A stretch of 64,000 nt of DNA from Ignavibacteriota bacterium (GCA_022616555.1 JAKEEG010000068.1:912-64911); one strand, 5' to 3'; counted from the stretch's first letter, positions 22,187-35,444 are shown. Notes: generated by a model not told the origin, from the letters alone. A program made the numbers and translations.

Positions 22187-22819
22187 ATGCCCATGTCGCC
22201 CCGCGTACGCAAGTTTGCGCTCACAGCGCACATCACATTTTCGGTTGGGTGGTTTGGAGCAGTTGCTGTATTCCTTGCTCTCGCCCTTGCCGGTCTGACA
22301 AGCCAGAACGCCCAGCTGGTTCAAGCGGCGTATGTTGCGATGGCACTCAGCGCTTGGTTCGTGATTGTCCCAGCCAGCTTTGGCGCGTTTTCGACGGGTT
22401 TGATTCAATCGCTTGGAACACAGTGGGGTTTGTTCAAACATTACTGGGTTGTTGTAAAACTCCTGCTCACCGTCATCGCCACCGGATTGCTGTTGTTGCA
22501 CATGGAGCCCGTCAGTTATCTTGCGGAGATAGCATCCCAAATTACGCCTTCCGGTACCGAATTCCGCTCAATACAGCTTCAACTTGTCGGCGACGCATCC
22601 GCAGCACTGTTCGTACTGGGCGCAACGATAGCGATCTCTGTTTACAAACCGTGGGGTCTAACGCCGTACGGAATTCGCAAGCAGCAAGCTCAAGCAGAGA
22701 TGAGAAATGAGAAGAGCGCGAAAAGATCTCAGGGTTTTTATATCTTGATCGGGCTTTTAGTTCTCGGAGTGTTAATCGCAATTATACATCTGCTCGGGGG
22801 CGGTTTAGGCAATCATTGA
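22187..22819 (+). CDS. Hypothetical integral membrane protein (4-5 TM helices)
   Basis: 210 aa; hydrophobic helices; no family recognised. Confidence 0.45.
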   Translation: MPMSPRVRKFALTAHITFSVGWFGAVAVFLALALAGLTSQNAQLVQAAYVAMALSAWFVIVPASFGAFSTGLIQSLGTQWGLFKHYWVVVKLLLTVIATGLLLLHMEPVSYLAEIASQITPSGTEFRSIQLQLVGDASAALFVLGATIAISVYKPWGLTPYGIRKQQAQAEMRNEKSAKRSQGFYILIGLLVLGVLIAIIHLLGGGLGNH

Positions 22820-23469
22820 TTCGACGCACTCGCTGTCTCAACTTCCGCTTTGCGTTCCTGCCGAAGTTTGGCGATCCGTTTACTCACCCACTCCCATACA
22901 CGATAAAGTAGCAGCACACCAATGATCGCGCCGTATGTTAGCGGGCGCTGCGTGTCGGCTTTCACCAGCCAGAGATAGTGTATCACGCCGCAAATCCCCG
23001 TTACGTAAACCAGACGATGTAACAATTGCCAGCGCTTGCCGCCAATCCATTTAGTGATACGGTCGGTTGAGGTCGCTGCGAGCGGTATCATGAGCGAATA
23101 CGCCGTAAAGCCAATGAGGATAAACGGGCGTTTGGGAATATCCGCCAAGATTTCTCCCCACTCAAAGAACTTATCGAAGTACAGGTATGTGAAGAAGTGC
23201 AGCGAGCCGTAGAAGAACGCGTAGAGCCCGAACATACGTCTTAACTGAAGTAACTGATTCCATTTCGTGATGCGCCTGAGCGGAGTGATGCTCAACGTGA
23301 TGACGATGAAGCGGAGCGTCCATGTTCCGGTTTCGTCGGTGATATCATCCAACGGATTGGCGCTGAGCGTATCGGTCAGCACACCATACACGAGCAAGCC
23401 AAGAGGAACGAGGGCAAGGATGAAAAGCGCCGGCTTAAGTACTCTGCGGAACCACTGTTGTTGGGTCAT
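22813..23469 (-). CDS. msrQ: Protein-methionine-sulfoxide reductase heme-binding subunit MsrQ (YedZ-like)
   Basis: 218 aa; ferric-reductase-like TM protein with conserved His residues; adjacent to msrP. Confidence 0.75.
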   Translation of the reverse strand: MTQQQWFRRVLKPALFILALVPLGLLVYGVLTDTLSANPLDDITDETGTWTLRFIVITLSITPLRRITKWNQLLQLRRMFGLYAFFYGSLHFFTYLYFDKFFEWGEILADIPKRPFILIGFTAYSLMIPLAATSTDRITKWIGGKRWQLLHRLVYVTGICGVIHYLWLVKADTQRPLTYGAIIGVLLLYRVWEWVSKRIAKLRQERKAEVETASASNQ

Positions 23470-23548
23470 GTTTTAGGAATGCCAAATATCAAAGCTCAAA
23501 TTACAAATGAGGGGATTTGACATTTGGATTTTGAAATTTGGAATTGCT

Positions 23549-24508
23549 TCAAAAGTATCTCTTCAGGTCCATTCCTGCGTACAGATGTTCGACGTATTCG
23601 CCGTAGCCGTTGAACATCAGCGTTTTGCGCTTGAAGAACTCGCCGATGCGGCGCTCGCTGCTCTGGCTCCAGCGCGGGTGGTCGACGCTGGGGTTGACGT
23701 TCGAGTAGAAGCCGTACTCATCGGAGTTTGCCTGCGTCCATGTTGAGACTGGTTGGTTCTCCACGAAGCGAATTTTCACAATCGACTTGATGCCCTTAAA
23801 GCCGTACTTCCACGGCACAACGAGGCGGAACGGCGCGCCGTTCTGGTTCGGCAGCTCCTTCCCGTACAATCCCACGGCAAAAATCGCCAACGGGTGCATT
23901 GCCTCGTCCATGCGCAGTCCTTCGACGTAGGGCCAGTTCAGGTACGGGCGCTTCTGGCCGGGCATTTGATTGGAATCCAGCAACGTTGTGAACTCAACGA
24001 ACTTCGCTTTGGGCAGCGGCTCGAATTTTTTGAATAGCTCGGAAAGTGGAAAGCCCAGCCACGGAATCACCATCGACCACGCCTCGACACAACGCATGCG
24101 GTAGATGCGGTCTTCCAGCGTGATGCCTTTAAGCAGGTCTTCTAAGTTGTATGCTGCAGGCTTCTTGGCCAGCCCTTCGACTTTTACCGACCACGGTTTT
24201 GTTTTGAAATTCTGCGCGTTCTCCGCCGGGTCATCTTTATCGATGCCGAACTCATAAAAGTTATTGTACGTCGTAATGTCTTTATACGGCGTGAGCTTTT
24301 CATCGGTATCAAACGGGCTTTTCTGCTTAGGCTTCCAGTCCTGCTGCTCCAGCGCTGATAATCTCCTCAATGGCTGCTCGATGATTGAGCCGACAGCAAG
24401 TCCAGCCGCAGCTGCACCCGCTGTGCGGATGAACTGGCGTCGATTATGATAGAGCGGCTCAGGGGTTATTTCGGATGAGAGAATATCGTTGGCGCGCTTG
24501 ATGAGCAT
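23549..24508 (-). CDS. msrP: Protein-methionine-sulfoxide reductase catalytic subunit MsrP (YedY-like molybdoenzyme)
   Basis: 319 aa; Tat signal [18 protein letters not shown] and a sulfite-oxidase-like Moco domain. Confidence 0.85.
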
Positions 24509-24695: not shown

Positions 24696-26306
24696 TTACG
24701 AGCGCTCTTGCTTCCACCAGCGGTCGACAACCTGGCCGATATGAGTCTCGACGCCGCTTTGCTTCCACTTGTCGAAGAAACGGATGTCGGAGCTTTCCGG
24801 TTCTGGGTTGGGATAATCAACTTGCACGCGCAGGGGCATGGGCATCGAGTCGCCGACGACAAGCGCTTCGCCCTGTCGAAGCGCAGGGAGCACATCGACC
24901 AAACCGGAAAACGAATCAGGCACAAGCCTTCGCACATAGTTCTGGTCGAGCGGATTCGTGAGGCGTAAAATAACGAAATTCGAGCACTGCGACAGGATCG
25001 TTTCAGACACCTCCGTGGGGCGCTGGCTGACGATCATACAACTGACGCCGTACTTTCTGCCTTCCTTCGCGATGCGTTCGACAACGCGGCGTGCGGCTTT
25101 CGTGGTAGAGCCGCCGCTCGGCAGATAGTTATGCGCTTCTTCGAACACCAGCAAGATTGGGAAATCGCGGCGGTGCATGTTCCAGAAATTGAAATCGAAG
25201 GACATGCGCGCGAGCATCGCGACGATGGTGTTGACGATATCGAACGGTACACCGCTCATATCCATAATGGTCACCTTGGCGGCTCCTGCTTTTCCGAAAA
25301 TCTTCTCCATCAATTCCTTCATCGATTCCGAGGTGAGGTACAGCCTCGGCTTGAACATAAACGCGTAGCGCGGGTCGCTCAATTTACTGTCCAACCGCAC
25401 GAGGAAGCGCGTGAACTTGCCGTAGAACGGCCCCTCTTTCGTGCCTGCGGAACCGACGCCGCTGATTTTTTCCGTGTCCAGGTACTGTACTTTTGCGCGC
25501 ACCTCGGCGATATCAAAATAGACCGGCGTATCGATCGTGAGCACATCTGCCAAGCTGGGATTTTTTCCTTTTTTCGAGGCGATGACGAGATCCTTCAATA
25601 CGGTAATCTGACTCGACGCATTCTCGTCGCGCTCATCAATGAACATCTCCTGCATCTCCTCGAAGTTCATCAGCCAGAACGGGAATTCCAATTCCGCGAT
25701 GTTCAGGTAATTGGATGAGCCGGCGAATGCCGCCTGGTACTCGTTGTGGATGTCGAGGATGATGATATTGGTATCCGGGAAGCTTGTGACTTTCTGCAAG
25801 AGAGACGAGACCGTGCATGATTTTCCCGAGCCGCTGGAGCCGAGCACGGCGATGTGCTTGCCGAAAAACCGGTTCGGGTCAAGGTAACTCCGTTCGTTCT
25901 CAAACATCGACAGGTTGCCGATGGAAAACCCGAACTTGCGGAACACGGAGAACACAGCGGTCAAGTCCGCATCTTCCGCGAGGTAAACGACCGTATCGAC
26001 CGGAGGCACAATGGAAACGCCTCGCTCGTAGCGCCCGCCTTTGACGGTTCCGACAAGATTCACCGTCATCACGTAGCGCTGCATGCCGCTGCCGTTGAGC
26101 TGTACGTCTTGCTTCCGGAAATCGGAAACCATCGCCACGACGATGAGTTTCGCAAACGGGATGAGCACGTAGCTGCTGATCTGCCCGATATAGTAGGTTT
26201 TGCCGTTGAACTCGCGGACGAGATTATCGATCTCTTCATCGATCAGAACGGTAATGCCGCCAGTGGTTACTTCCGAAACAACACCGATGCGTTTTTGGTC
26301 TAACAT
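24696..26306 (-). CDS. HerA-like (DUF87, FtsK/HerA-superfamily) hexameric ATPase
   Basis: 536 aa; N-terminal HAS-barrel-like segment, Walker A VLGSSGSGKSC, Walker B LLVFEEAHNYLP, and a C-terminal SQRPTEV...ILRLTNPLDQNYV block typical of bacterial HerA/DUF87. Confidence 0.8.
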   Translation of the reverse strand: MLDQKRIGVVSEVTTGGITVLIDEEIDNLVREFNGKTYYIGQISSYVLIPFAKLIVVAMVSDFRKQDVQLNGSGMQRYVMTVNLVGTVKGGRYERGVSIVPPVDTVVYLAEDADLTAVFSVFRKFGFSIGNLSMFENERSYLDPNRFFGKHIAVLGSSGSGKSCTVSSLLQKVTSFPDTNIIILDIHNEYQAAFAGSSNYLNIAELEFPFWLMNFEEMQEMFIDERDENASSQITVLKDLVIASKKGKNPSLADVLTIDTPVYFDIAEVRAKVQYLDTEKISGVGSAGTKEGPFYGKFTRFLVRLDSKLSDPRYAFMFKPRLYLTSESMKELMEKIFGKAGAAKVTIMDMSGVPFDIVNTIVAMLARMSFDFNFWNMHRRDFPILLVFEEAHNYLPSGGSTTKAARRVVERIAKEGRKYGVSCMIVSQRPTEVSETILSQCSNFVILRLTNPLDQNYVRRLVPDSFSGLVDVLPALRQGEALVVGDSMPMPLRVQVDYPNPEPESSDIRFFDKWKQSGVETHIGQVVDRWWKQERS

Positions 26307-26340
26307 GGATGCGCTCCCCTTCTAGCAATAAAGGTAAATG

Positions 26341-27573
26341 TTAGTGAACTCTCTTGACAATTACAACGGTCTTGTCATCCGTATTCTCAGAACCCTTTGA
26401 AAACGTCTGGACATCCTCTAAAATAGCTTTGCAGATTGCCTCGGCGCTCTCCTCGGCATACTCCTCCACTTTCTCCGCAATGCGGCGTTCGCCATAAAGT
26501 TCATCGTTGCTGTCCGTCGCCTCGCTAATGCCGTCGGTATACATGACGAGAATATCCCCCAACGCCATACGCGTGTTTTCCACACGGAAGCGTTCCTGTG
26601 GGAACGGCCCCAGCACTTGTCCTGTAGCCTCGAGCATTTCAATTCTGCGGTCGTGTGCATGATACAACACCGGACTGTTATGTCCCGCATTGCAATACAA
26701 CAGCAAGCCTTTCTGGTCGTCTGCGAATTCCGCGTAGAACATGGAAACGAACTGTTCTTCCGAGAACGTGGAATTCACCAGCGAGTTGATGCGCGCGACG
26801 AGAGAGCTGATTTTTGTATGATACGAAATGCCCATCCGCAGCGCGCCCACGACGTACAACGCCTGCGACGCCGCGCGGAAGCCTTTACTGGCAGCGTCCG
26901 CGATGAACACGCTCAGGCGGTCGCGTTCTTCATCGCCGAACAAGTAGTCGAAAAAATCGCCGCCGACAATACGGTCGGGGATCGACATGCCGTAGAGTGC
27001 GTAGTTATGAAAGTCCAGCGCGGGCTGCGGGAGAATGCTTTGCTGAATCTCGCGCGCCTTATCGATATCGCGCTCGAGCAGTTTCGCTTTCTGCTCGATT
27101 TTCTTGCCCTTCAAGCGCGCCGTCAGCGCGAGGCTGATGATATTCAGCTCGCTTAAATGGCTGTGGTCCAACTCCTCGGAGTTGAACGCAAGCACGTACT
27201 GGTACACCGGACCGTTCTTGGACGGCTGCCTATCGCCGACACCCGTCGCAGAGTATTTCAGAATGCCCTTCTTGCGCAGATATTTATCGGTCTCGCGCGC
27301 GATAATCGAGCGGTGCATGCCGAGTTGAACAAAAACCGGATATTCCGCGAGCACGATGCGATAGCCCGGCTCGATTTTCTCGATCACACCGATTTGGTGA
27401 AGCAGACGATACGACTCGGTAGATGTTTCAAACTGCCAGATACGTCCGCCCTGAATGCTGATGTTCTCGTTCTTGACGATTTCGTTGACGACGTGTTTCA
27501 ACAGCTGCGCGTCGGACTTGAAATCGTTCGAAACAAAACTTTCTATGGTTTTATATAATCTTCGTTGGTGCAT
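26341..27573 (-). CDS. PP2C-type Ser/Thr phosphatase (SpoIIE/RsbU-like) with an uncharacterised N-terminal domain of about 170 aa
   Basis: 410 aa; C-terminal PP2C/SpoIIE motifs GGDFFDY, SVFIADAASKG, YCNAGHNSPVLY, YTDGISEA; the N-terminal domain is unassigned (possibly GAF/PAS-like); ends 35 nt upstream of herA. Confidence 0.75.
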   Translation of the reverse strand: MHQRRLYKTIESFVSNDFKSDAQLLKHVVNEIVKNENISIQGGRIWQFETSTESYRLLHQIGVIEKIEPGYRIVLAEYPVFVQLGMHRSIIARETDKYLRKKGILKYSATGVGDRQPSKNGPVYQYVLAFNSEELDHSHLSELNIISLALTARLKGKKIEQKAKLLERDIDKAREIQQSILPQPALDFHNYALYGMSIPDRIVGGDFFDYLFGDEERDRLSVFIADAASKGFRAASQALYVVGALRMGISYHTKISSLVARINSLVNSTFSEEQFVSMFYAEFADDQKGLLLYCNAGHNSPVLYHAHDRRIEMLEATGQVLGPFPQERFRVENTRMALGDILVMYTDGISEATDSNDELYGERRIAEKVEEYAEESAEAICKAILEDVQTFSKGSENTDDKTVVIVKRVH

Positions 27574-27757
27574 TGAATCCTTTTGTAATTTGCCACTATG
27601 TCACTAAGAAATTAAAATCTTACTTGTCTACCCCCTGCATTCCGTTCACGTGGCGAACGGAACGCGTCCCGCTTGATGAAGGAGGACAAAAAGCTTTTCT
27701 TTAACTGCGCAACCTAAACTACCGAAGCAATCCCCTCGGGAGTGGTTTGCTTTTCTG

Positions 27758-29941
27758 TTAAGCTTTTACTTTTCTTTTCTGTACTTCATAAATTTTAATC
27801 GGCTTTGCCTTTCCCTTGACCTTGATCGGGTCGAGAGCAACAAGCTTAAACTCTTTCGGCGAGCCGAGGTGTTTCAATGCGAAATCGGACATGAGAATCT
27901 GCCCGCCTTTCGCCGCGCTACACAGCCGCGCGCCGAGGTTCACGTTATCGCCGATCACAGTATAATCCATTCTTTCCTCACTGCCCATGGCGCCCATCAC
28001 CATCTCACCTGTATTAATGCCGATGCCGATGGCAATGCGTTCTTTGCCGTCAGACAGGGCGTCATTTGACAATTCTTCCTGTATTTCCAGCGCTGCGCGC
28101 AGGGCATTTTCGACCATCTTTCCGCCTTCAAATACCGCCACAAGCTCATCACCGACGTACTTATCGATGTCGCCGCCGTATTTTTTCACGATGGAAGATT
28201 GCCGCGACAACGTGGTGTTGAGCATGGTAACGACTTTTTCAGGCTCGACGTCTTCCGAAAACGCCGTGAAGCCGCGAATATCCGAGAAAAACACCGTGGC
28301 GACTTTCCGCTCGCCGCCGAGCCGAACACCCTGCAGGTCGGCTCTGCTCACCGCGTCGGCGGTCTGGCGCGAGACGAACTTTTGAAGGTGCAGGCGTTCG
28401 CGCAATCCTTTCGTCATCTCGTTGATGCGACGGGCAAGATTCCCGATTTCATCACTGGAGTTTTCCTCTGCGTGCGCAGAGAAATCTCCTTCACCGATGC
28501 GGAGTGCGACACCCTCGATGGCTTTGACGGGTTTTACTACCACAGAATTCATAAAGATGCGCAGGACGCCCCACACGAAGAAGATCGTGACAATGCCCAC
28601 TGCTGTTGAGCGGACTTTGTTGGCATTTATCGCTTCGTTAATATCACCCATCGACGCTGAGATTTCCACGACGCCGCGCACCTTGTGGTTCCTGCCGTGG
28701 CACGAGTAGCACCGCTGCTCATTGCGGAGCGGCGTAAGCATCACGAGTCGGTCATCATCGCCTTCGCGAGCAACAAACTCCATTGTCGCCACGCTATCCG
28801 CTACCAATTTTGTTTCAATTCTCTGGCGCGGTGTGGGATTGAGAAAACGCTCGTTGCCGTCTTTATCATACACACTCAGTTTTTGAATGACGGGCAAGGA
28901 GCGTATTTCGTCCAGATAGTAACGGGCAGAACCGGCGCGCCCAACGAGCATGATGCCGCGGAAACCCTCGAAGAGCGCTGTCTGAAACACCGGCGTCAGC
29001 TTTTTAGCGACATCCGAGCTGAACATCCGCAACGAGTCGGCATCAAAATCCACAGCAAGCACGCCGCGCATGGGAAACTTCTCGCCGTGGCAGATCTGAC
29101 AACGCTCCTCGTTTGCCAGCGGCAACAGCAGGCTCAGCGTCTTCCCGTTGCGCTTGAATTGTTTTTCTTTTGTACGATTTTCGATGATTTCAAGAATCGG
29201 TTCGGCGTCGACTTCATCTTCGTAATCACCGAACGCGATATCGCCCAGCCTGCTGAACACCCGTACTTGTTTCACCGCCGGGATGTTCTTGGAGGCGAGC
29301 ATCAGCGTATCCATAAACTCTCCGCCACCGCCGACCATAATGTTGCGAAACGCGGTGGCGATAAAATCGCCCATAATGCCGGCTGTCTGCTGCACGGTTT
29401 CTTCAGTACTACCCGTGCGCATGGCGCTCGGTTTCAACGCTAATTGCAGTACGCCGCGAATATGGTCCTTGGGATCGTGGCAGCGCCAGCATTCGACTCT
29501 GTTGGGCAGCGGCTCGTAACGCGTCAGGATATCCTCCCCAGCGGTGTTGCCCATCGTCCAGTGCGTTGCATGAGCACTGAGTGTTTGGCTGAGGAGCGTG
29601 TCGGTCTCGTGCACATTGTAAATGACGCCCTCGCCTTCGCGCAGGAAGACCTCGCGCCCCAGCCGGTCGTAGATCGTCAGGTCGCCGAAGCTATTCAGGT
29701 TCTGCCGGACGTCGTTCACCAGCTCGGCGGCGTACGGCGATTTGCCGGTGAGCATCACGTTGCGGATGCCCGCCATGATTGTCTCCGAGTAGAGCCAGAG
29801 CTTCTCGCGATGGTCTTTCACCATCTGCTCGGATTCCTTCTGAATGCTGACGATAACGTAACTGCCGAACCCGATGAGGAGTACGGCGGTCAGCAGCAGG
29901 AGAATTTTATACTCGAGGCGTTCCCGAATTGCCCGAATCAA
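27758..29941 (-). CDS. Membrane-bound class III adenylate/guanylate cyclase with a HAMP linker and a periplasmic sensor carrying three CxxCH motifs
   Basis: 727 aa; TM1 near residue 15; a roughly 420 aa periplasmic region with three repeats ending CWRCH, CQICH and CYSCH, each followed by ...RGV(L/V); TM2, HAMP, then the cyclase homology domain (FSDIRGFT, VGDELVAVF, GINTGEMVMGAMG, IGDNVNLGARL). Confidence 0.85.
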   Translation of the reverse strand: MIRAIRERLEYKILLLLTAVLLIGFGSYVIVSIQKESEQMVKDHREKLWLYSETIMAGIRNVMLTGKSPYAAELVNDVRQNLNSFGDLTIYDRLGREVFLREGEGVIYNVHETDTLLSQTLSAHATHWTMGNTAGEDILTRYEPLPNRVECWRCHDPKDHIRGVLQLALKPSAMRTGSTEETVQQTAGIMGDFIATAFRNIMVGGGGEFMDTLMLASKNIPAVKQVRVFSRLGDIAFGDYEDEVDAEPILEIIENRTKEKQFKRNGKTLSLLLPLANEERCQICHGEKFPMRGVLAVDFDADSLRMFSSDVAKKLTPVFQTALFEGFRGIMLVGRAGSARYYLDEIRSLPVIQKLSVYDKDGNERFLNPTPRQRIETKLVADSVATMEFVAREGDDDRLVMLTPLRNEQRCYSCHGRNHKVRGVVEISASMGDINEAINANKVRSTAVGIVTIFFVWGVLRIFMNSVVVKPVKAIEGVALRIGEGDFSAHAEENSSDEIGNLARRINEMTKGLRERLHLQKFVSRQTADAVSRADLQGVRLGGERKVATVFFSDIRGFTAFSEDVEPEKVVTMLNTTLSRQSSIVKKYGGDIDKYVGDELVAVFEGGKMVENALRAALEIQEELSNDALSDGKERIAIGIGINTGEMVMGAMGSEERMDYTVIGDNVNLGARLCSAAKGGQILMSDFALKHLGSPKEFKLVALDPIKVKGKAKPIKIYEVQKRKVKA

Positions 29942-34571: not shown

Positions 34572-35444
34572 ATGGGACTTTATCCTCAACCGAATCAATG
34601 GCAATGCGGACCGTTTGCGCTCAAGCATGCGCTGGTGACGTTAGGCATTTTTGCAGATGAAAAGCACATCACGAAAATCGCCGGCACGCACTGGTGGTAC
34701 GGCACGGACGATATTCAACTCAGCAAAGCGGCAAAGCAATACAAATGCAAGATGATGATCATCCGCCGCCACGACCCGGAACAGGCGCGGCGCGAGCTGG
34801 TTGCGTACCTCCGGCGCGGAATTCCCACACTGTTGTGCGTGAATGAATGGGAACACTGGATCACCGTCGTAAAAGAAGAAAGCGGACAGTTCATTGCGCT
34901 CGATAGCGCCGACGACGCCGTGCTGACAATCCTTCCCTGGCGACAGTTAAAACGCATCTGGGTGTACCACGAACAGGACGAGCTGGATAAGAGTTTCGTC
35001 CGCACAATTTACGACTATCACCCAGTCCTTCCAAAGCGCCGCGTCCAGACCAAGGCGCGCTTCTCCATTTCACGGGCGCGATTCCTCCGCCGCTATGAGA
35101 ACAGGACGCTCTCCCAGAACTGGGACAAGTACGTTGCCGATTTGCTCGATTTATGCAAACCACGCACAGCGTTAAGCGAGAAAGTAATTTCGTTGGGAGA
35201 ATTTTTTCGCAGGCACGAAGAAATGATCATCGACCAGGTCTCGTACTGGCACGGGACGGTGACGCCGCGGCAAGCGCGGTCGCTGCTCAAGCAATTCCGG
35301 TTAGTGGCCGATACGTACGGTTTGGTAATTCACGAAGAAGACGAGAAGCGCGCAATTGCGGGTATTACGTCGCTCACCACGCTCTGGGCTGCAGGGAAGT
35401 ACGGCTCGATGCCGGTGTATGGCGAGAAGAAGGCACGCAAGTAA
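34572..35444 (+). CDS. Hypothetical protein with an N-terminal papain-like (C39-like) cysteine peptidase signature
   Basis: 290 aa; Q-x5-C (QWQCGPFAL) with downstream H-W (NEWEHWITVV) and an Asp-rich stretch, consistent with a papain-fold catalytic triad; C-terminal half unassigned. Confidence 0.45.
   Translation: MGLYPQPNQWQCGPFALKHALVTLGIFADEKHITKIAGTHWWYGTDDIQLSKAAKQYKCKMMIIRRHDPEQARRELVAYLRRGIPTLLCVNEWEHWITVVKEESGQFIALDSADDAVLTILPWRQLKRIWVYHEQDELDKSFVRTIYDYHPVLPKRRVQTKARFSISRARFLRRYENRTLSQNWDKYVADLLDLCKPRTALSEKVISLGEFFRRHEEMIIDQVSYWHGTVTPRQARSLLKQFRLVADTYGLVIHEEDEKRAIAGITSLTTLWAAGKYGSMPVYGEKKARK

What the first reader, a model, noticed from the sequence alone, without database searches (positions are those of the whole stretch)
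27758..29941. Membrane class III nucleotide cyclase with a periplasmic sensor containing three repeated CxxCH motifs (candidate multi-heme redox sensor)
Between TM1 and TM2 lie three similar modules of about 130 aa. Each ends in CxxCH followed by a conserved ...(H/F/K)xRGV(L/V) segment: NRVECWRCHDPKDHIRGVLQL, NEERCQICHGEKFPMRGVLAV and NEQRCYSCHGRNHKVRGVVEI. CxxCH is the covalent c-type heme attachment motif, and the region is predicted periplasmic, where cytochrome c maturation occurs. This looks like a triple heme-c, or other metal-binding, sensory domain coupled through HAMP to a cAMP/cGMP-forming domain. Redox-sensing cyclases of this architecture are uncommon. It lies directly upstream of the PP2C/HerA pair (184 nt gap with a hairpin) and could be functionally linked to it.
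Basis: partly seen in the sequence, partly recalled or inferred. Interest (0 to 1): 0.6.

Follow-up and report, generated by a model that had tools for sequence, protein, structure and literature searches.

The report
Triple haem-c sensor adenylate cyclase
This gene encodes a membrane adenylate cyclase whose outward-facing part is three tandem copies of an already known haem-c sensor domain, so it most likely converts periplasmic redox or nitric oxide signals into cAMP; the domain family is known, but the threefold array has not been described.

Summary
ORF 27758..29941 (-) encodes 727 aa: TM1, three about 130-aa repeats, TM2, HAMP and a class III cyclase. CxxCH sits at residues 151, 281 and 411.

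Each repeat alone passes the Pfam threshold for PF21563. That family is built on the Geobacter haem-c sensors GSU0582/GSU0935 (PDB 3B47/3B42), and a 2026 preprint names it sCache_heme. A repeat profile hits 3B42 and 3B47 at E about 3e-16.

All 56 full-length orthologues (47-81% identity) keep all three CxxCH. They also keep a Met per repeat that aligns with Met60, the distal haem ligand of GSU0935. The six cyclase catalytic residues are invariant, with Lys594/Thr661, which indicates a class IIIb adenylate cyclase.

So this is three mono-haem sensor domains in series, not a packed multihaem cytochrome. The domain and its fusion to cyclases are known. The triple array is not described in the papers I could search. 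It forms its own family of at least 30 clusters, and it couples almost only to cyclases.

The downstream genes are a GAF-PP2C phosphatase and a HerA-like ATPase. They are conserved neighbours in many relatives, but they also occur without the cyclase, so a functional link is only suggestive. Haem binding, the signal sensed and cAMP output are all untested.

The parts
27758..29941 (-). Whole gene: 727-aa receptor-type adenylate cyclase (TM1, three haem-c Cache-like modules, TM2, HAMP, class IIIb cyclase)
   Evidence: ORF list; Pfam PF21563 x3, PF00672, PF00211; identical to NCBI protein P0001; AF2 model with pLDDT 81
29843..29905 (-). TM1 (residues 13-33). It acts as a signal anchor. In the model it continues as the first helix of module 1.
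   Evidence: Kyte-Doolittle peak; AF2 helix 9-63; translation ILLLLTAVLLIGFGSYVIVSI
29432..29842 (-). Sensor module 1 (residues 34-170). Invariant Met63 is at 29753-29755 and CWRCH (151-155) at 29477-29491.
   Evidence: PF21563 32.7 bits on its own; Met63, C151, C154, H155, R162 and G163 invariant in 56 orthologues; coordinates checked
29042..29431 (-). Sensor module 2 (residues 171-300). Invariant Met202 is at 29336-29338 and CQICH (281-285) at 29087-29101.
   Evidence: PF21563 37.6 bits on its own; phmmer hit to 3B47 over residues 194-295; M202, C281, C284, H285, R292 and G293 invariant
28616..29041 (-). Sensor module 3 (residues 301-442). Invariant Met331 is at 28949-28951 and CYSCH (411-415) at 28697-28711. 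Its last strand leads into TM2.
   Evidence: PF21563 44.2 bits and PF11845 18.5 bits on its own; phmmer hit to 3B42 over residues 324-430; M331, C411, C414, H415 and R422 invariant; AF2 strand 421-430 followed by helix 432-483
28538..28606 (-). TM2 (about residues 446-468)
   Evidence: Kyte-Doolittle peak at 454-460; continuous AF2 helix 432-483
28397..28546 (-). HAMP domain (residues 466-515)
   Evidence: PF00672 43.4 bits, above the cut-off of 25
27788..28300 (-). Class IIIb adenylate cyclase catalytic domain (residues 548-718). Catalytic residues are D554, K594, D598, T661, N668 and R672.
   Evidence: PF00211 89.6 bits; best solved relatives are Cya2/6FHT and P. aeruginosa CyaB 3R5G, aligned residue by residue; Foldseek TM 0.75-0.88 to cyclase domains; all six residues invariant in 56 orthologues
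27574..27757 (-). 184-nt spacer between the cyclase and the PP2C gene. It holds a 13-bp hairpin at 27637-27665 with no U-tract. Orthologous loci have only 19-44 nt here.
   Evidence: Sequence and fold; not called as a terminator; no Rfam match; gene spacing in L001-L003
26341..27573 (-). Neighbour 1: GAF-PP2C (SpoIIE-type) Ser/Thr phosphatase, 410 aa. The GAF domain is residues 1-165 (27079-27573) and the PP2C domain is residues 217-408 (26350-26925). It is a possible but unproven cAMP receptor.
   Evidence: PF07228 140.7 bits; AF2 of the N-terminus, pLDDT 82.7, pTM 0.81; Foldseek top hits are all GAF domains, including the cAMP-bound Lcd1 GAF 5W10; directly downstream of the cyclase in about 10 related loci
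24696..26306 (-). Neighbour 2: HerA-like (DUF87) P-loop ATPase, 536 aa, with Walker A GSSGSGKS at residue 156. It sits next to the cyclase in two different gene orders among relatives.
   Evidence: PF01935 117.2 bits; PADLOC HerA model PDLC04105 528 bits over the full length; NCBIfam NF042944 432 bits, below the cut-off of 850; synteny

Best explanation
The gene encodes a receptor-type adenylate cyclase. Like all class III cyclases, it is presumably a homodimer.

TM1 anchors the protein with its N-terminus inside the cell. About 410 residues lie in the periplasm, and TM2 returns the chain to a cytoplasmic HAMP domain and a class IIIb catalytic domain.

The periplasmic part is three tandem copies of the haem-c Cache/PAS-like sensor domain (Pfam PF21563 Mcp40H-20_sensor, also called sCache_heme). 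Each copy is predicted to carry one c-type haem, covalently attached to its CxxCH motif by the cytochrome c maturation system. The motif His would be the proximal ligand. An invariant Met at the end of the first helix of each copy (Met63, Met202, Met331) would be the switchable distal ligand.

By analogy with GSU0582/GSU0935, reduction of the iron binds the Met. Oxidation releases it, and binding of NO or CO displaces it. The resulting movement of the N-terminal helices is passed on in two ways: module 1's helix is continuous with TM1, and module 3's last strand leads into TM2. The signal reaches HAMP and changes the rate of cAMP synthesis.

I commit to periplasmic redox poise as the primary signal, with NO as a strong alternative. 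The three haems could give three set points or integrate the signal.

Shown here: domain identities, conservation, catalytic residues and topology logic. Inferred: haem attachment, Met ligation, the signal sensed, the direction of regulation, and cAMP as the product.
For: Domain identity:
- Each repeat alone exceeds the PF21563 gathering score.
- A profile of 51 repeats hits only the two solved haem-c sensors in the PDB: 3B42 at E 2.8e-16 and 3B47 at E 3.6e-16.

Conserved residues:
- CxxCH x3 is kept in all 56 full-length orthologues down to 47% identity, and in divergent relatives at 20-43% identity.
- The residues invariant across all repeat types are Met, Gly, Asn-x3-Cys-x2-Cys-His and Arg.
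- The Met aligns with chain residue 26 of 3B42. This is Met60, the distal ligand of GSU0935.
- There is no spare Cys in the sensor region, so Tll0287-type Cys/His ligation is excluded.

Structure model: AF2 gives three repeats of helix-helix-strands-short helix (carrying CxxCH)-strand. This matches the published description of sCache_heme.

Topology: there are two TM segments, and the ATP-using HAMP-cyclase must be cytoplasmic. The repeats are therefore periplasmic, where haem c is attached.

Cyclase: D554, K594, D598, T661, N668 and R672 are invariant. At these positions the protein is identical to P. aeruginosa adenylate cyclase CyaB (3R5G). It differs from guanylate cyclase Cya2 (2W01), which has Glu in place of the Lys.

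Biochemistry of relatives:
- In GSU0582/0935, Met binds the reduced haem and is released on oxidation. NO and CO displace it. Midpoints are -156 and -251 mV.
- A signalling-type sCache_heme receptor binds NO with slow off-rate kinetics.

Host: Ignavibacteria genomes encode many multihaem cytochromes, so the lineage can mature c-type haem.
Against: - No experiment exists on any member of the triple-array family. Haem binding is inferred from homology alone.
- No cytochrome c maturation gene lies in the window, and the rest of this genome could not be inspected.
- The model is a monomer without haem. The Geobacter domains crystallise as domain-swapped dimers, so the true arrangement of the three modules is unknown.
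- Redox and NO cannot be told apart from sequence.
- Some relatives have lost CxxCH in module 1 (P0235, P0236, P0248), so not every module needs to be haem-loaded for function.
Confidence: 0.8

Rival explanations
1. Same protein and same haem-c domains, but the physiological signal is nitric oxide (or CO) rather than redox potential. The gas displaces the distal Met or water, and this switches the cyclase, as proposed for signalling-type sCache_heme receptors.
For: - The P. azotoformans Cache_heme-HAMP receptor binds NO with koff about 6e-4 per s and forms no stable O2 complex.
- NO binding raises phosphorylation of that receptor by its partner kinase.
- NO and CO displace Met60 in the Geobacter sensors.
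- A cytochrome P460 gene, from a family tied to hydroxylamine/NO chemistry, lies directly downstream of a shorter haem-Cache cyclase in L006. Another lies about 5 kb downstream of the triple cyclase in L002/L008.
Against: - The NO-sensing receptor studied was reported to lack the axial Cys of Tll0287, with water proposed as the sixth ligand. All three modules here keep the Geobacter-type Met.
- Three differently conserved modules fit several redox set points more naturally than a single gas.
- The P460 neighbourhood is absent from the window and from most loci.
Confidence: 0.35
2. The periplasmic region is an electron-transfer trihaem cytochrome, a redox enzyme or wire, rather than a sensor. 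The cyclase would be incidental or would merely report electron flux.
For: - Weak sub-threshold hits to cytochrome c7, c3 and doubled-CXXCH models centre on the third motif.
- About 26 of 42 divergent family members give weak Cytochrome_CBB3 hits.
- Stand-alone sCache_heme proteins are proposed to have redox roles.
Against: - All the cytochrome hits are below the curated cut-offs and cover only the 9-30 residues around CxxCH.
- There is one haem per about 130 residues, each in its own Cache-like domain. Electron-transfer multihaem proteins carry roughly one haem per 30-40 residues (established knowledge).
- The architecture TM-sensor-TM-HAMP-output is that of a signalling receptor.
Confidence: 0.03
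3. The CxxCH motifs bind a non-haem metal (Zn, Fe or Cu) or form redox-active disulfides, so the domain senses metal or thiol redox state without haem.
For: Cys and His are generic metal ligands. Nothing here measures haem directly.
Against: - The motif sits at the homologous position of the haem-attachment site of two crystal structures with covalent haem.
- It is 99% conserved in more than 5,000 family members.
- The distal Met is also invariant.
Confidence: 0.03
4. The cyclase, PP2C and HerA form an anti-phage defence operon. It would be Pycsar-like or HerA-based, with the cyclase making a defence signal.
For: - The cyclase domain hits PADLOC PycC models, up to 89.8 bits.
- HerA hits the PADLOC HerA model PDLC04105 at 528 bits and the NCBIfam 'anti-phage-associated HerA' model at 432 bits.
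Against: - The PycC hits cover only the generic cyclase fold.
- The substrate residues are the purine (adenine) pair Lys/Thr.
- No cNMP-binding effector, Sir2, DUF4297 or nuclease partner is present.
- The NCBIfam HerA score is far below its cut-off of 850.
- The locus sits in the same housekeeping context (MutS-DinB ... MsrPQ-aconitase) across relatives at 55-60% identity. This indicates vertical inheritance, not a mobile island.
- HerA orthologues are highly conserved and abundant across this lineage.
Confidence: 0.03

Closest known systems
GSU0582 / GSU0935 periplasmic haem-c sensor domains of Geobacter sulfurreducens chemoreceptors (PDB 3B47 / 3B42; Pfam PF21563)
   Same: - Same domain family: profile E about 3e-16, and each module passes the Pfam cut-off.
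- CxxCH lies in the short helix before the last strand.
- The distal Met60 equivalent is conserved.
- The domain sits between two TM helices and is followed by HAMP.
   Different: - One domain per chemoreceptor there; three in tandem here.
- The output there is an MCP signalling domain; here it is an adenylate cyclase.
- Sequence identity to them is low.
- The arginine 7 residues after the haem His is invariant here but absent from GSU0582.
sCache_heme / Cache_heme family (DUF3365, Tll0287-like, PF11845), as defined in the 2026 preprints PMC12889525 and 10.64898/2026.05.25.727664. This includes the P. azotoformans Cache_heme-HAMP NO receptor.
   Same: - Extracytoplasmic Cache fold with a CxxCH insertion.
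- Fused to signalling outputs, among which Guanylate_cyc is listed.
- Genomic association with Ser/Thr phospho-signalling genes (a kinase, sometimes a PP2C).
   Different: - Those papers describe single domains; the word 'tandem' does not occur in either.
- The studied receptor has no enzymatic output. It was reported to lack the axial Cys of Tll0287, with water proposed as the sixth ligand.
- PF11845 matches here only weakly, and only in module 3.
Tll0287 of Thermosynechococcus (PDB 5B82)
   Same: Same superfamily, with c-type haem on a PAS/Cache-like fold.
   Different: - Tll0287 has Cys/His axial ligation and is a stand-alone protein.
- The window protein has no spare Cys in the sensor region.
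- The repeat profile does not reach 5B82 at E<=1.
Class IIIb bacterial adenylate cyclases, e.g. P. aeruginosa CyaB (PDB 3R5G) and Spirulina CyaC (1WC0)
   Same: - Catalytic fold (TM-score 0.75-0.83).
- Identical metal, substrate (Lys/Thr) and transition-state residues.
- A membrane-anchored sensor lies N-terminal of the catalytic domain.
   Different: The sensor in CyaB is an integral-membrane MASE2 module, not periplasmic haem domains. Bicarbonate responsiveness, known for class IIIb enzymes, is untested here.
Soluble guanylate cyclase / H-NOX-coupled cyclases
   Same: It works like them: a haem sensor controls a class III nucleotide cyclase.
   Different: Those enzymes use non-covalent haem b in a cytoplasmic H-NOX domain, form a heterodimer and make cGMP. 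There is no homology in the sensor part, so this is not a member.

Membership tests
Haem-c Cache/PAS-like sensor domain (PF21563 Mcp40H-20_sensor; sCache_heme) | Sequence match to the family model above the curated threshold | tested here: met
   The three modules scanned separately give 32.7, 37.6 and 44.2 bits against a cut-off of 27. The repeat profile hits 3B42 and 3B47 at E about 3e-16.
Haem-c Cache/PAS-like sensor domain (PF21563 Mcp40H-20_sensor; sCache_heme) | Canonical CxxCH in the short helix inserted before the last beta-strand | tested here: met
   CxxCH lies at 151, 281 and 411. In the AF2 model, modules 2 and 3 have short helices at 282-285 and 409-415 followed by a strand; in module 1 the motif lies in a short helical turn before strand 161-169. 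The motif is invariant in 56 orthologues.
Haem-c Cache/PAS-like sensor domain (PF21563 Mcp40H-20_sensor; sCache_heme) | Extracytoplasmic location, which covalent haem attachment requires | tested here: met
   There are two predicted TM helices flanking the repeats, and the ATP-dependent HAMP-cyclase is C-terminal of TM2. This is a prediction only, with no experimental topology.
Haem-c Cache/PAS-like sensor domain (PF21563 Mcp40H-20_sensor; sCache_heme) | Distal axial ligand equivalent to Met60 of GSU0935 | tested here: met
   An invariant Met in every module (M63, M202, M331) aligns with Met60 of 3B42.
Haem-c Cache/PAS-like sensor domain (PF21563 Mcp40H-20_sensor; sCache_heme) | Covalently bound c-type haem | not testable with these tools
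   This needs expression with a Ccm system, haem staining, pyridine haemochrome and mass spectrometry.
Haem-c Cache/PAS-like sensor domain (PF21563 Mcp40H-20_sensor; sCache_heme) | Cytochrome c maturation system present in the host genome | tested here: inconclusive
   None was found among the window ORFs scanned. The rest of the genome is not available. Ignavibacteria in general encode many multihaem cytochromes.
Class III nucleotide cyclase, subclass IIIb adenylate cyclase | Catalytic domain model above threshold and cyclase fold | tested here: met
   PF00211 scores 89.6 bits against a cut-off of 21.9. Foldseek gives TM-scores of 0.75-0.88 to solved cyclase domains.
Class III nucleotide cyclase, subclass IIIb adenylate cyclase | Two metal-binding Asp residues plus the transition-state Asn and Arg | tested here: met
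   D554, D598, N668 and R672 are present and invariant in 56 orthologues. They align with the same residues of CyaB 3R5G.
Class III nucleotide cyclase, subclass IIIb adenylate cyclase | Adenine-specifying Lys, with Thr in place of Asp (the class IIIb signature) | tested here: met
   K594 and T661 are invariant. The guanylate cyclase Cya2 (2W01) has Glu at the Lys position.
Class III nucleotide cyclase, subclass IIIb adenylate cyclase | cAMP synthesis by a dimer, regulated by the sensor | not testable with these tools
   This needs an enzyme assay on membranes or nanodiscs.
Multihaem c-type cytochromes (c3/c7, doubled CXXCH) | Match to a multihaem cytochrome model above threshold, with densely packed haem motifs | tested here: not met
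   Cytochrome_C7 scores 17.1 bits (cut-off 24.8), Cytochrom_c3_2 15.5 (cut-off 25) and Paired_CXXCH_1 11.4 (cut-off 20.6). All cover only 9-17 residues. There is one motif per 130 residues.
Pycsar defence cyclase (PycC) | Pyrimidine cyclase with an adjacent cNMP-activated effector | tested here: not met
   The PADLOC PycC hits are confined to the generic cyclase domain. The specificity residues are Lys/Thr. No effector gene is adjacent.
HerA-based anti-phage systems (Sir2-HerA, DUF4297-HerA); applies to the neighbouring gene | HerA paired with a Sir2 or DUF4297 nuclease-type effector, and a family score above the NCBIfam cut-off | tested here: not met
   NF042944 scores 432 bits against a cut-off of 850. 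The partners here are GAF-PP2C and MsrP, or the cyclase. The gene is highly conserved across this lineage.

The most novel reading that the evidence does not exclude
The three haem modules have different midpoint potentials or ligand affinities, so one receptor works as a graded periplasmic 'redox ruler' with a cAMP output. In Ignavibacteria this cAMP is read by the GAF domain of the adjacent PP2C phosphatase. The phosphatase in turn controls the conserved HerA-like ATPase. That would be a previously undescribed pathway: haem-c sensor to cAMP to Ser/Thr phosphatase to HerA.

Three observations support it only indirectly:
- The modules are conserved in a position-specific way.
- The triple array is fused to PP2C or placed next to a Ser/Thr kinase in some family members.
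- HerA is adjacent to the cyclase in two different gene orders.
Probability: 0.15. Interest if true: 0.65.

Novelty: new variant of a known kind. Interest (0 to 1): 0.4.

Why it matters
Periplasmic c-type haem sensors are among the few known ways for bacteria to read extracellular redox potential or NO directly. How the haem signal crosses the membrane is still unclear.

A receptor that strings three such domains together and ends in an adenylate cyclase offers an easy enzymatic readout (cAMP) for that question. It is also a natural case for asking whether tandem haem sensors widen or sharpen the response range.

The triple array is an evolutionarily stable unit. Position-specific orthology holds across Ignavibacteria, Latescibacteria and Myxococcota-type sequences. 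The array is wired almost only to cyclases, and occasionally to PP2C or Ser/Thr kinase modules. This points to a dedicated signalling lineage that current descriptions of the family do not mention.

For genome annotation, the protein can be renamed from 'HAMP domain-containing protein' to a haem-c sensor adenylate cyclase.

Tried and rejected
- **Locus search with a diverse alignment.** The search for related loci with the diverse sensor alignment A4 failed because there was no conserved 7-10 column stretch. The scan was rerun with A1. Its patterns lie in the cyclase domain, so many of the 80 loci are unrelated HAMP-cyclases and had to be sorted with local HMMs.
- **Multihaem cytochrome reading.** Rejected because all such Pfam hits are sub-threshold.
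- **Tll0287-type Cys/His ligation.** Rejected because there is no spare Cys.
- **Pycsar or HerA defence reading.** Rejected for three reasons: a generic-domain hit only, no effector partner, and a vertically inherited housekeeping context.
- **Intergenic hairpin.** As a terminator it has no U-tract and is not called by the scan. As a known RNA element it has no Rfam match.
- **Literature.** A search for HerA + PP2C + adenylate cyclase returned nothing relevant. Searches for the domain family found no description of tandem or triple arrays.
- **ccm/ccs genes.** None were found among the window ORFs scanned.
- **Model coordinates.** These are not exposed, so Met-to-His distances in the model could not be measured.
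Full report
**What is in the sequence**

The ORF at 27758..29941 on the minus strand is intact. It has 727 codons and a TTG start. It is 100% identical to a protein that NCBI annotates only as 'HAMP domain-containing protein' in an Ignavibacteriae MAG.

CxxCH occurs three times, at residues 151, 281 and 411, exactly 130 residues apart.

Two hydrophobic segments, at about 13-33 and 446-468, flank the repeats. Pfam finds HAMP at 466-515 and the class III cyclase domain at 548-718.

The three repeats are significantly similar to one another. BLASTP gives E values of 7e-12, 4e-10 and 1e-5 at 23-26% identity.

**What the repeats are**

Each repeat scanned on its own exceeds the curated threshold of Pfam PF21563 (Mcp40H-20_sensor), with 32.7, 37.6 and 44.2 bits against a cut-off of 27. 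The third repeat also touches PF11845 (Tll0287-like/DUF3365).

PF21563 is the family of the periplasmic c-type haem sensor domains of the Geobacter sulfurreducens chemoreceptors GSU0582 and GSU0935. The single protein already hits their structures, 3B47 and 3B42, at E about 1e-6. A profile built from 51 repeats (17 orthologues x 3) hits them at 3.6e-16 and 2.8e-16. Nothing else in the PDB comes below E 0.6.

The AlphaFold model of the whole protein used 56 sequences and has a mean pLDDT of 81. It shows the same element order three times: a long helix, a second helix, strands, a short helix carrying CxxCH, and a last strand. A 2026 preprint describes this layout and renames the family sCache_heme. 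It reports 99% conservation of CxxCH across more than 5,000 members.

**Conservation and the distal ligand**

About 70 close relatives share the same architecture. They come from Ignavibacteria/Bacteroidota MAGs and metagenomes.

All 56 full-length orthologues, at 47-81% identity, keep all three motifs with 128-137 aa spacing.

Across all repeat types the invariant positions are a Met, a Gly, Asn-x3-Cys-x2-Cys-His, and an Arg seven residues after the His.

In the profile alignment the Met falls on chain residue 26 of 3B42. With Cys140 at chain residue 106, this is Met60. Met60 is the distal axial ligand of GSU0935. It binds the reduced haem, is released on oxidation and is displaced by NO or CO.

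The window protein has Met63, Met202 and Met331 at this position. Each sits at the end of the first helix of its module.

The sensor region has no spare cysteine, so the Cys/His ligation of Tll0287 is excluded.

Each module also has its own conserved signature. Examples are GIRNVMLTGK and ECWRCHD in module 1, RCQVCHG..FPMRG in module 2, and EGFRSIMLVGRA and NERFLNP in module 3. All three are therefore under selection.

**Not a multihaem cytochrome**

Hits to cytochrome c7, c3 and doubled-CXXCH models are all below threshold and cover only the residues around a motif.

With one motif per 130 residues, each in its own Cache-like domain, these are three mono-haem sensors in series. They are not a packed electron-transfer array. 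That last step rests on established knowledge of haem spacing in multihaem cytochromes.

**The output domain**

The best solved relatives of residues 540-722 are Cya2 (including the engineered Cya2 chimera), P. aeruginosa CyaB and Spirulina CyaC.

The two metal-binding aspartates (D554, D598), the transition-state pair (N668, R672) and the substrate pair (K594, T661) are all present. All are invariant in the 56 orthologues.

In the printed alignment these residues are identical to those of the adenylate cyclase CyaB. The guanylate cyclase Cya2 has Glu where this protein has Lys.

Lys plus Thr is the class IIIb adenylate cyclase signature (established knowledge). The predicted product is therefore cAMP. 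Bicarbonate sensitivity, common in class IIIb enzymes, is possible but untested.

**How it most likely works**

Topology follows from the two TM helices and the need for ATP at the catalytic domain: the repeats face the periplasm, where c-type haem is attached.

In the model, TM1 runs straight on as the Met-bearing helix of module 1. The last strand of module 3 leads into a continuous helix through TM2 into HAMP.

I infer that changes in haem state, through Met on/off switching, shift these helices and are relayed by HAMP to the cyclase dimer.

The Geobacter paralogues have midpoints of -156 and -251 mV and are thought to cover different redox ranges. Three differently conserved modules in one chain could do the same within a single receptor.

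A signalling-type family member from P. azotoformans behaves as an NO sensor, so NO is a serious alternative signal.

I commit to redox-linked Met switching as the primary mechanism. None of this has been tested in any triple-array protein.

**How unusual the architecture is**

I searched 1.84 billion representative proteins with the repeat profile. This gave 1,296 hits at E<=1e-3.

Every protein with three matched stretches ranks near the top of that list. Local HMMs and a Pfam scan give the following counts for those proteins:
- 3x sensor-HAMP-cyclase: about 30 clusters at 50% identity.
- 3x sensor-HAMP-PP2C: 2 clusters.
- Ser/Thr kinase followed by the 3x sensor: 1 cluster.
- The rest are mostly short proteins with no detected output domain, many of them probably contig fragments.
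- None carries a histidine kinase, MCP or GGDEF output.

In divergent members, the module at each position usually scores best against the Ignavibacterial module of the same position: 23/31, 26/31 and 18/31. The triplication is therefore old and inherited as a unit.

Among GTDB species representatives, the triple cyclase occurs in Ignavibacteria/Bacteroidota MAGs, in Polyangia/Myxococcales MAGs (33-34% identity) and in a few unclassified bacteria. One further cluster is named as Latescibacteria. Single-module versions occur in Spirochaetota, Leptospira, SAR324 and Nitrospirae MAGs.

The preprints list Guanylate_cyc among the outputs fused to sCache_heme but never mention tandem arrays. Further literature searches found none either.

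I therefore file the protein as a new variant of a known kind. It is clearly a member of the domain family and of class IIIb cyclases, with an undescribed threefold sensor array.

**The neighbours**

The next gene (26341..27573) is a SpoIIE-type PP2C phosphatase. Its N-terminal 165 residues are modelled at pLDDT 82.7 and match only GAF domains, including the cAMP-bound Lcd1 GAF.

The gene after it (24696..26306) is a HerA-like DUF87 ATPase with an intact Walker A motif.

Three patterns appear among relatives:
- The order cyclase, PP2C, HerA, MsrP, MsrQ recurs in about ten loci. Two of them have a different upstream context.
- A second cyclase clade, at about 48% identity, has HerA directly upstream and no PP2C. 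Those loci share wider synteny among themselves, so they count as one event.
- Against a tight functional unit: one genome has MutS-DinB-PP2C-HerA with no cyclase, another has HerA alone, and some cyclase orthologues and all the Myxococcota versions have neither neighbour.

HerA and PP2C are also more conserved and far more abundant than the cyclase.

The fair reading is that GAF-PP2C/HerA is an older core pair of this lineage. The cyclase is a frequent but dispensable neighbour of it. A cAMP to GAF-PP2C link is attractive but unproven.

A defence-system reading is not supported. The PycC hits are generic. The HerA score is far below the NCBIfam cut-off. No effector partner is present. The locus is vertically inherited among housekeeping genes.

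**Limits**

Haem attachment, ligation, the signal sensed, the direction of regulation and the product are all inferences from homology. No cytochrome c maturation gene lies in the window, and the rest of the genome could not be checked. Ignavibacteria in general carry many multihaem cytochromes. The structure model is a haem-free monomer, and its coordinates could not be inspected.

Noticed in passing
window 24696-27573 (-); loci L001-L004, L007-L020, L028, L077, L089, L090: GAF-PP2C plus a HerA-like DUF87 ATPase form a highly conserved gene pair in Ignavibacteria/Bacteroidota MAGs (PP2C 62-88% identity, HerA 63-92%). No nuclease or Sir2 partner is present. The pair occurs with the cyclase and without it (L089), and HerA also occurs alone (L090). 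Its function is unknown.
   Followed up: partly
window 22813-24508 (-): MsrP (molybdopterin oxidoreductase with a TAT signal) and MsrQ (ferric-reductase-like haem b membrane protein) follow HerA directly. They do so in every 'cyclase-PP2C-HerA' locus examined in full. This periplasmic methionine-sulfoxide repair system therefore sits beside a sensor predicted to use Met as haem ligand.
   Followed up: partly
L006 3527-4081; L002 15320-15829; L008 12084-12593: A cytochrome P460 gene lies directly downstream of a shorter haem-Cache-HAMP-cyclase in a Sediminispirochaetaceae MAG. Another lies about 5 kb downstream of the triple cyclase in two Ignavibacteria-type loci. This may hint at NO or hydroxylamine-related signalling.
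   Followed up: no
proteins P0214 (763 aa), P0234 (828 aa), P0229 (859 aa): The same triple haem-sensor array is fused through HAMP directly to a PP2C phosphatase domain in two clusters. In one cluster it lies C-terminal to a Ser/Thr protein kinase. It was never seen with histidine kinase, MCP or GGDEF outputs.
   Followed up: partly
proteins P0235, P0236, P0248: Some triple-array cyclases retain three recognisable modules but only two CxxCH motifs; the motif in module 1 is lost. Not every module needs to hold haem.
   Followed up: no
window 27637-27665 (-): A 13-bp perfect hairpin lies in the unusually long (184 nt) spacer between the cyclase and PP2C genes. It has no U-tract and no Rfam match. 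Orthologous loci have spacers of only 19-44 nt, so this looks like a lineage-specific insertion.
   Followed up: partly
L077, L013, L026: Three contigs carry Ignavibacteria-like HerA-cyclase or cyclase loci, yet one is labelled Synechococcus sp. and two are labelled Chitinophagaceae MAGs. This is probably mis-binning or mis-classification in the public records.
   Followed up: no
window 34572-35444 (+) and 22187-22819 (+): ORFs of 290 aa and 210 aa have no Pfam match. An unannotated gene of similar size occupies the first position, next to MutS, in L001 and L003.
   Followed up: no
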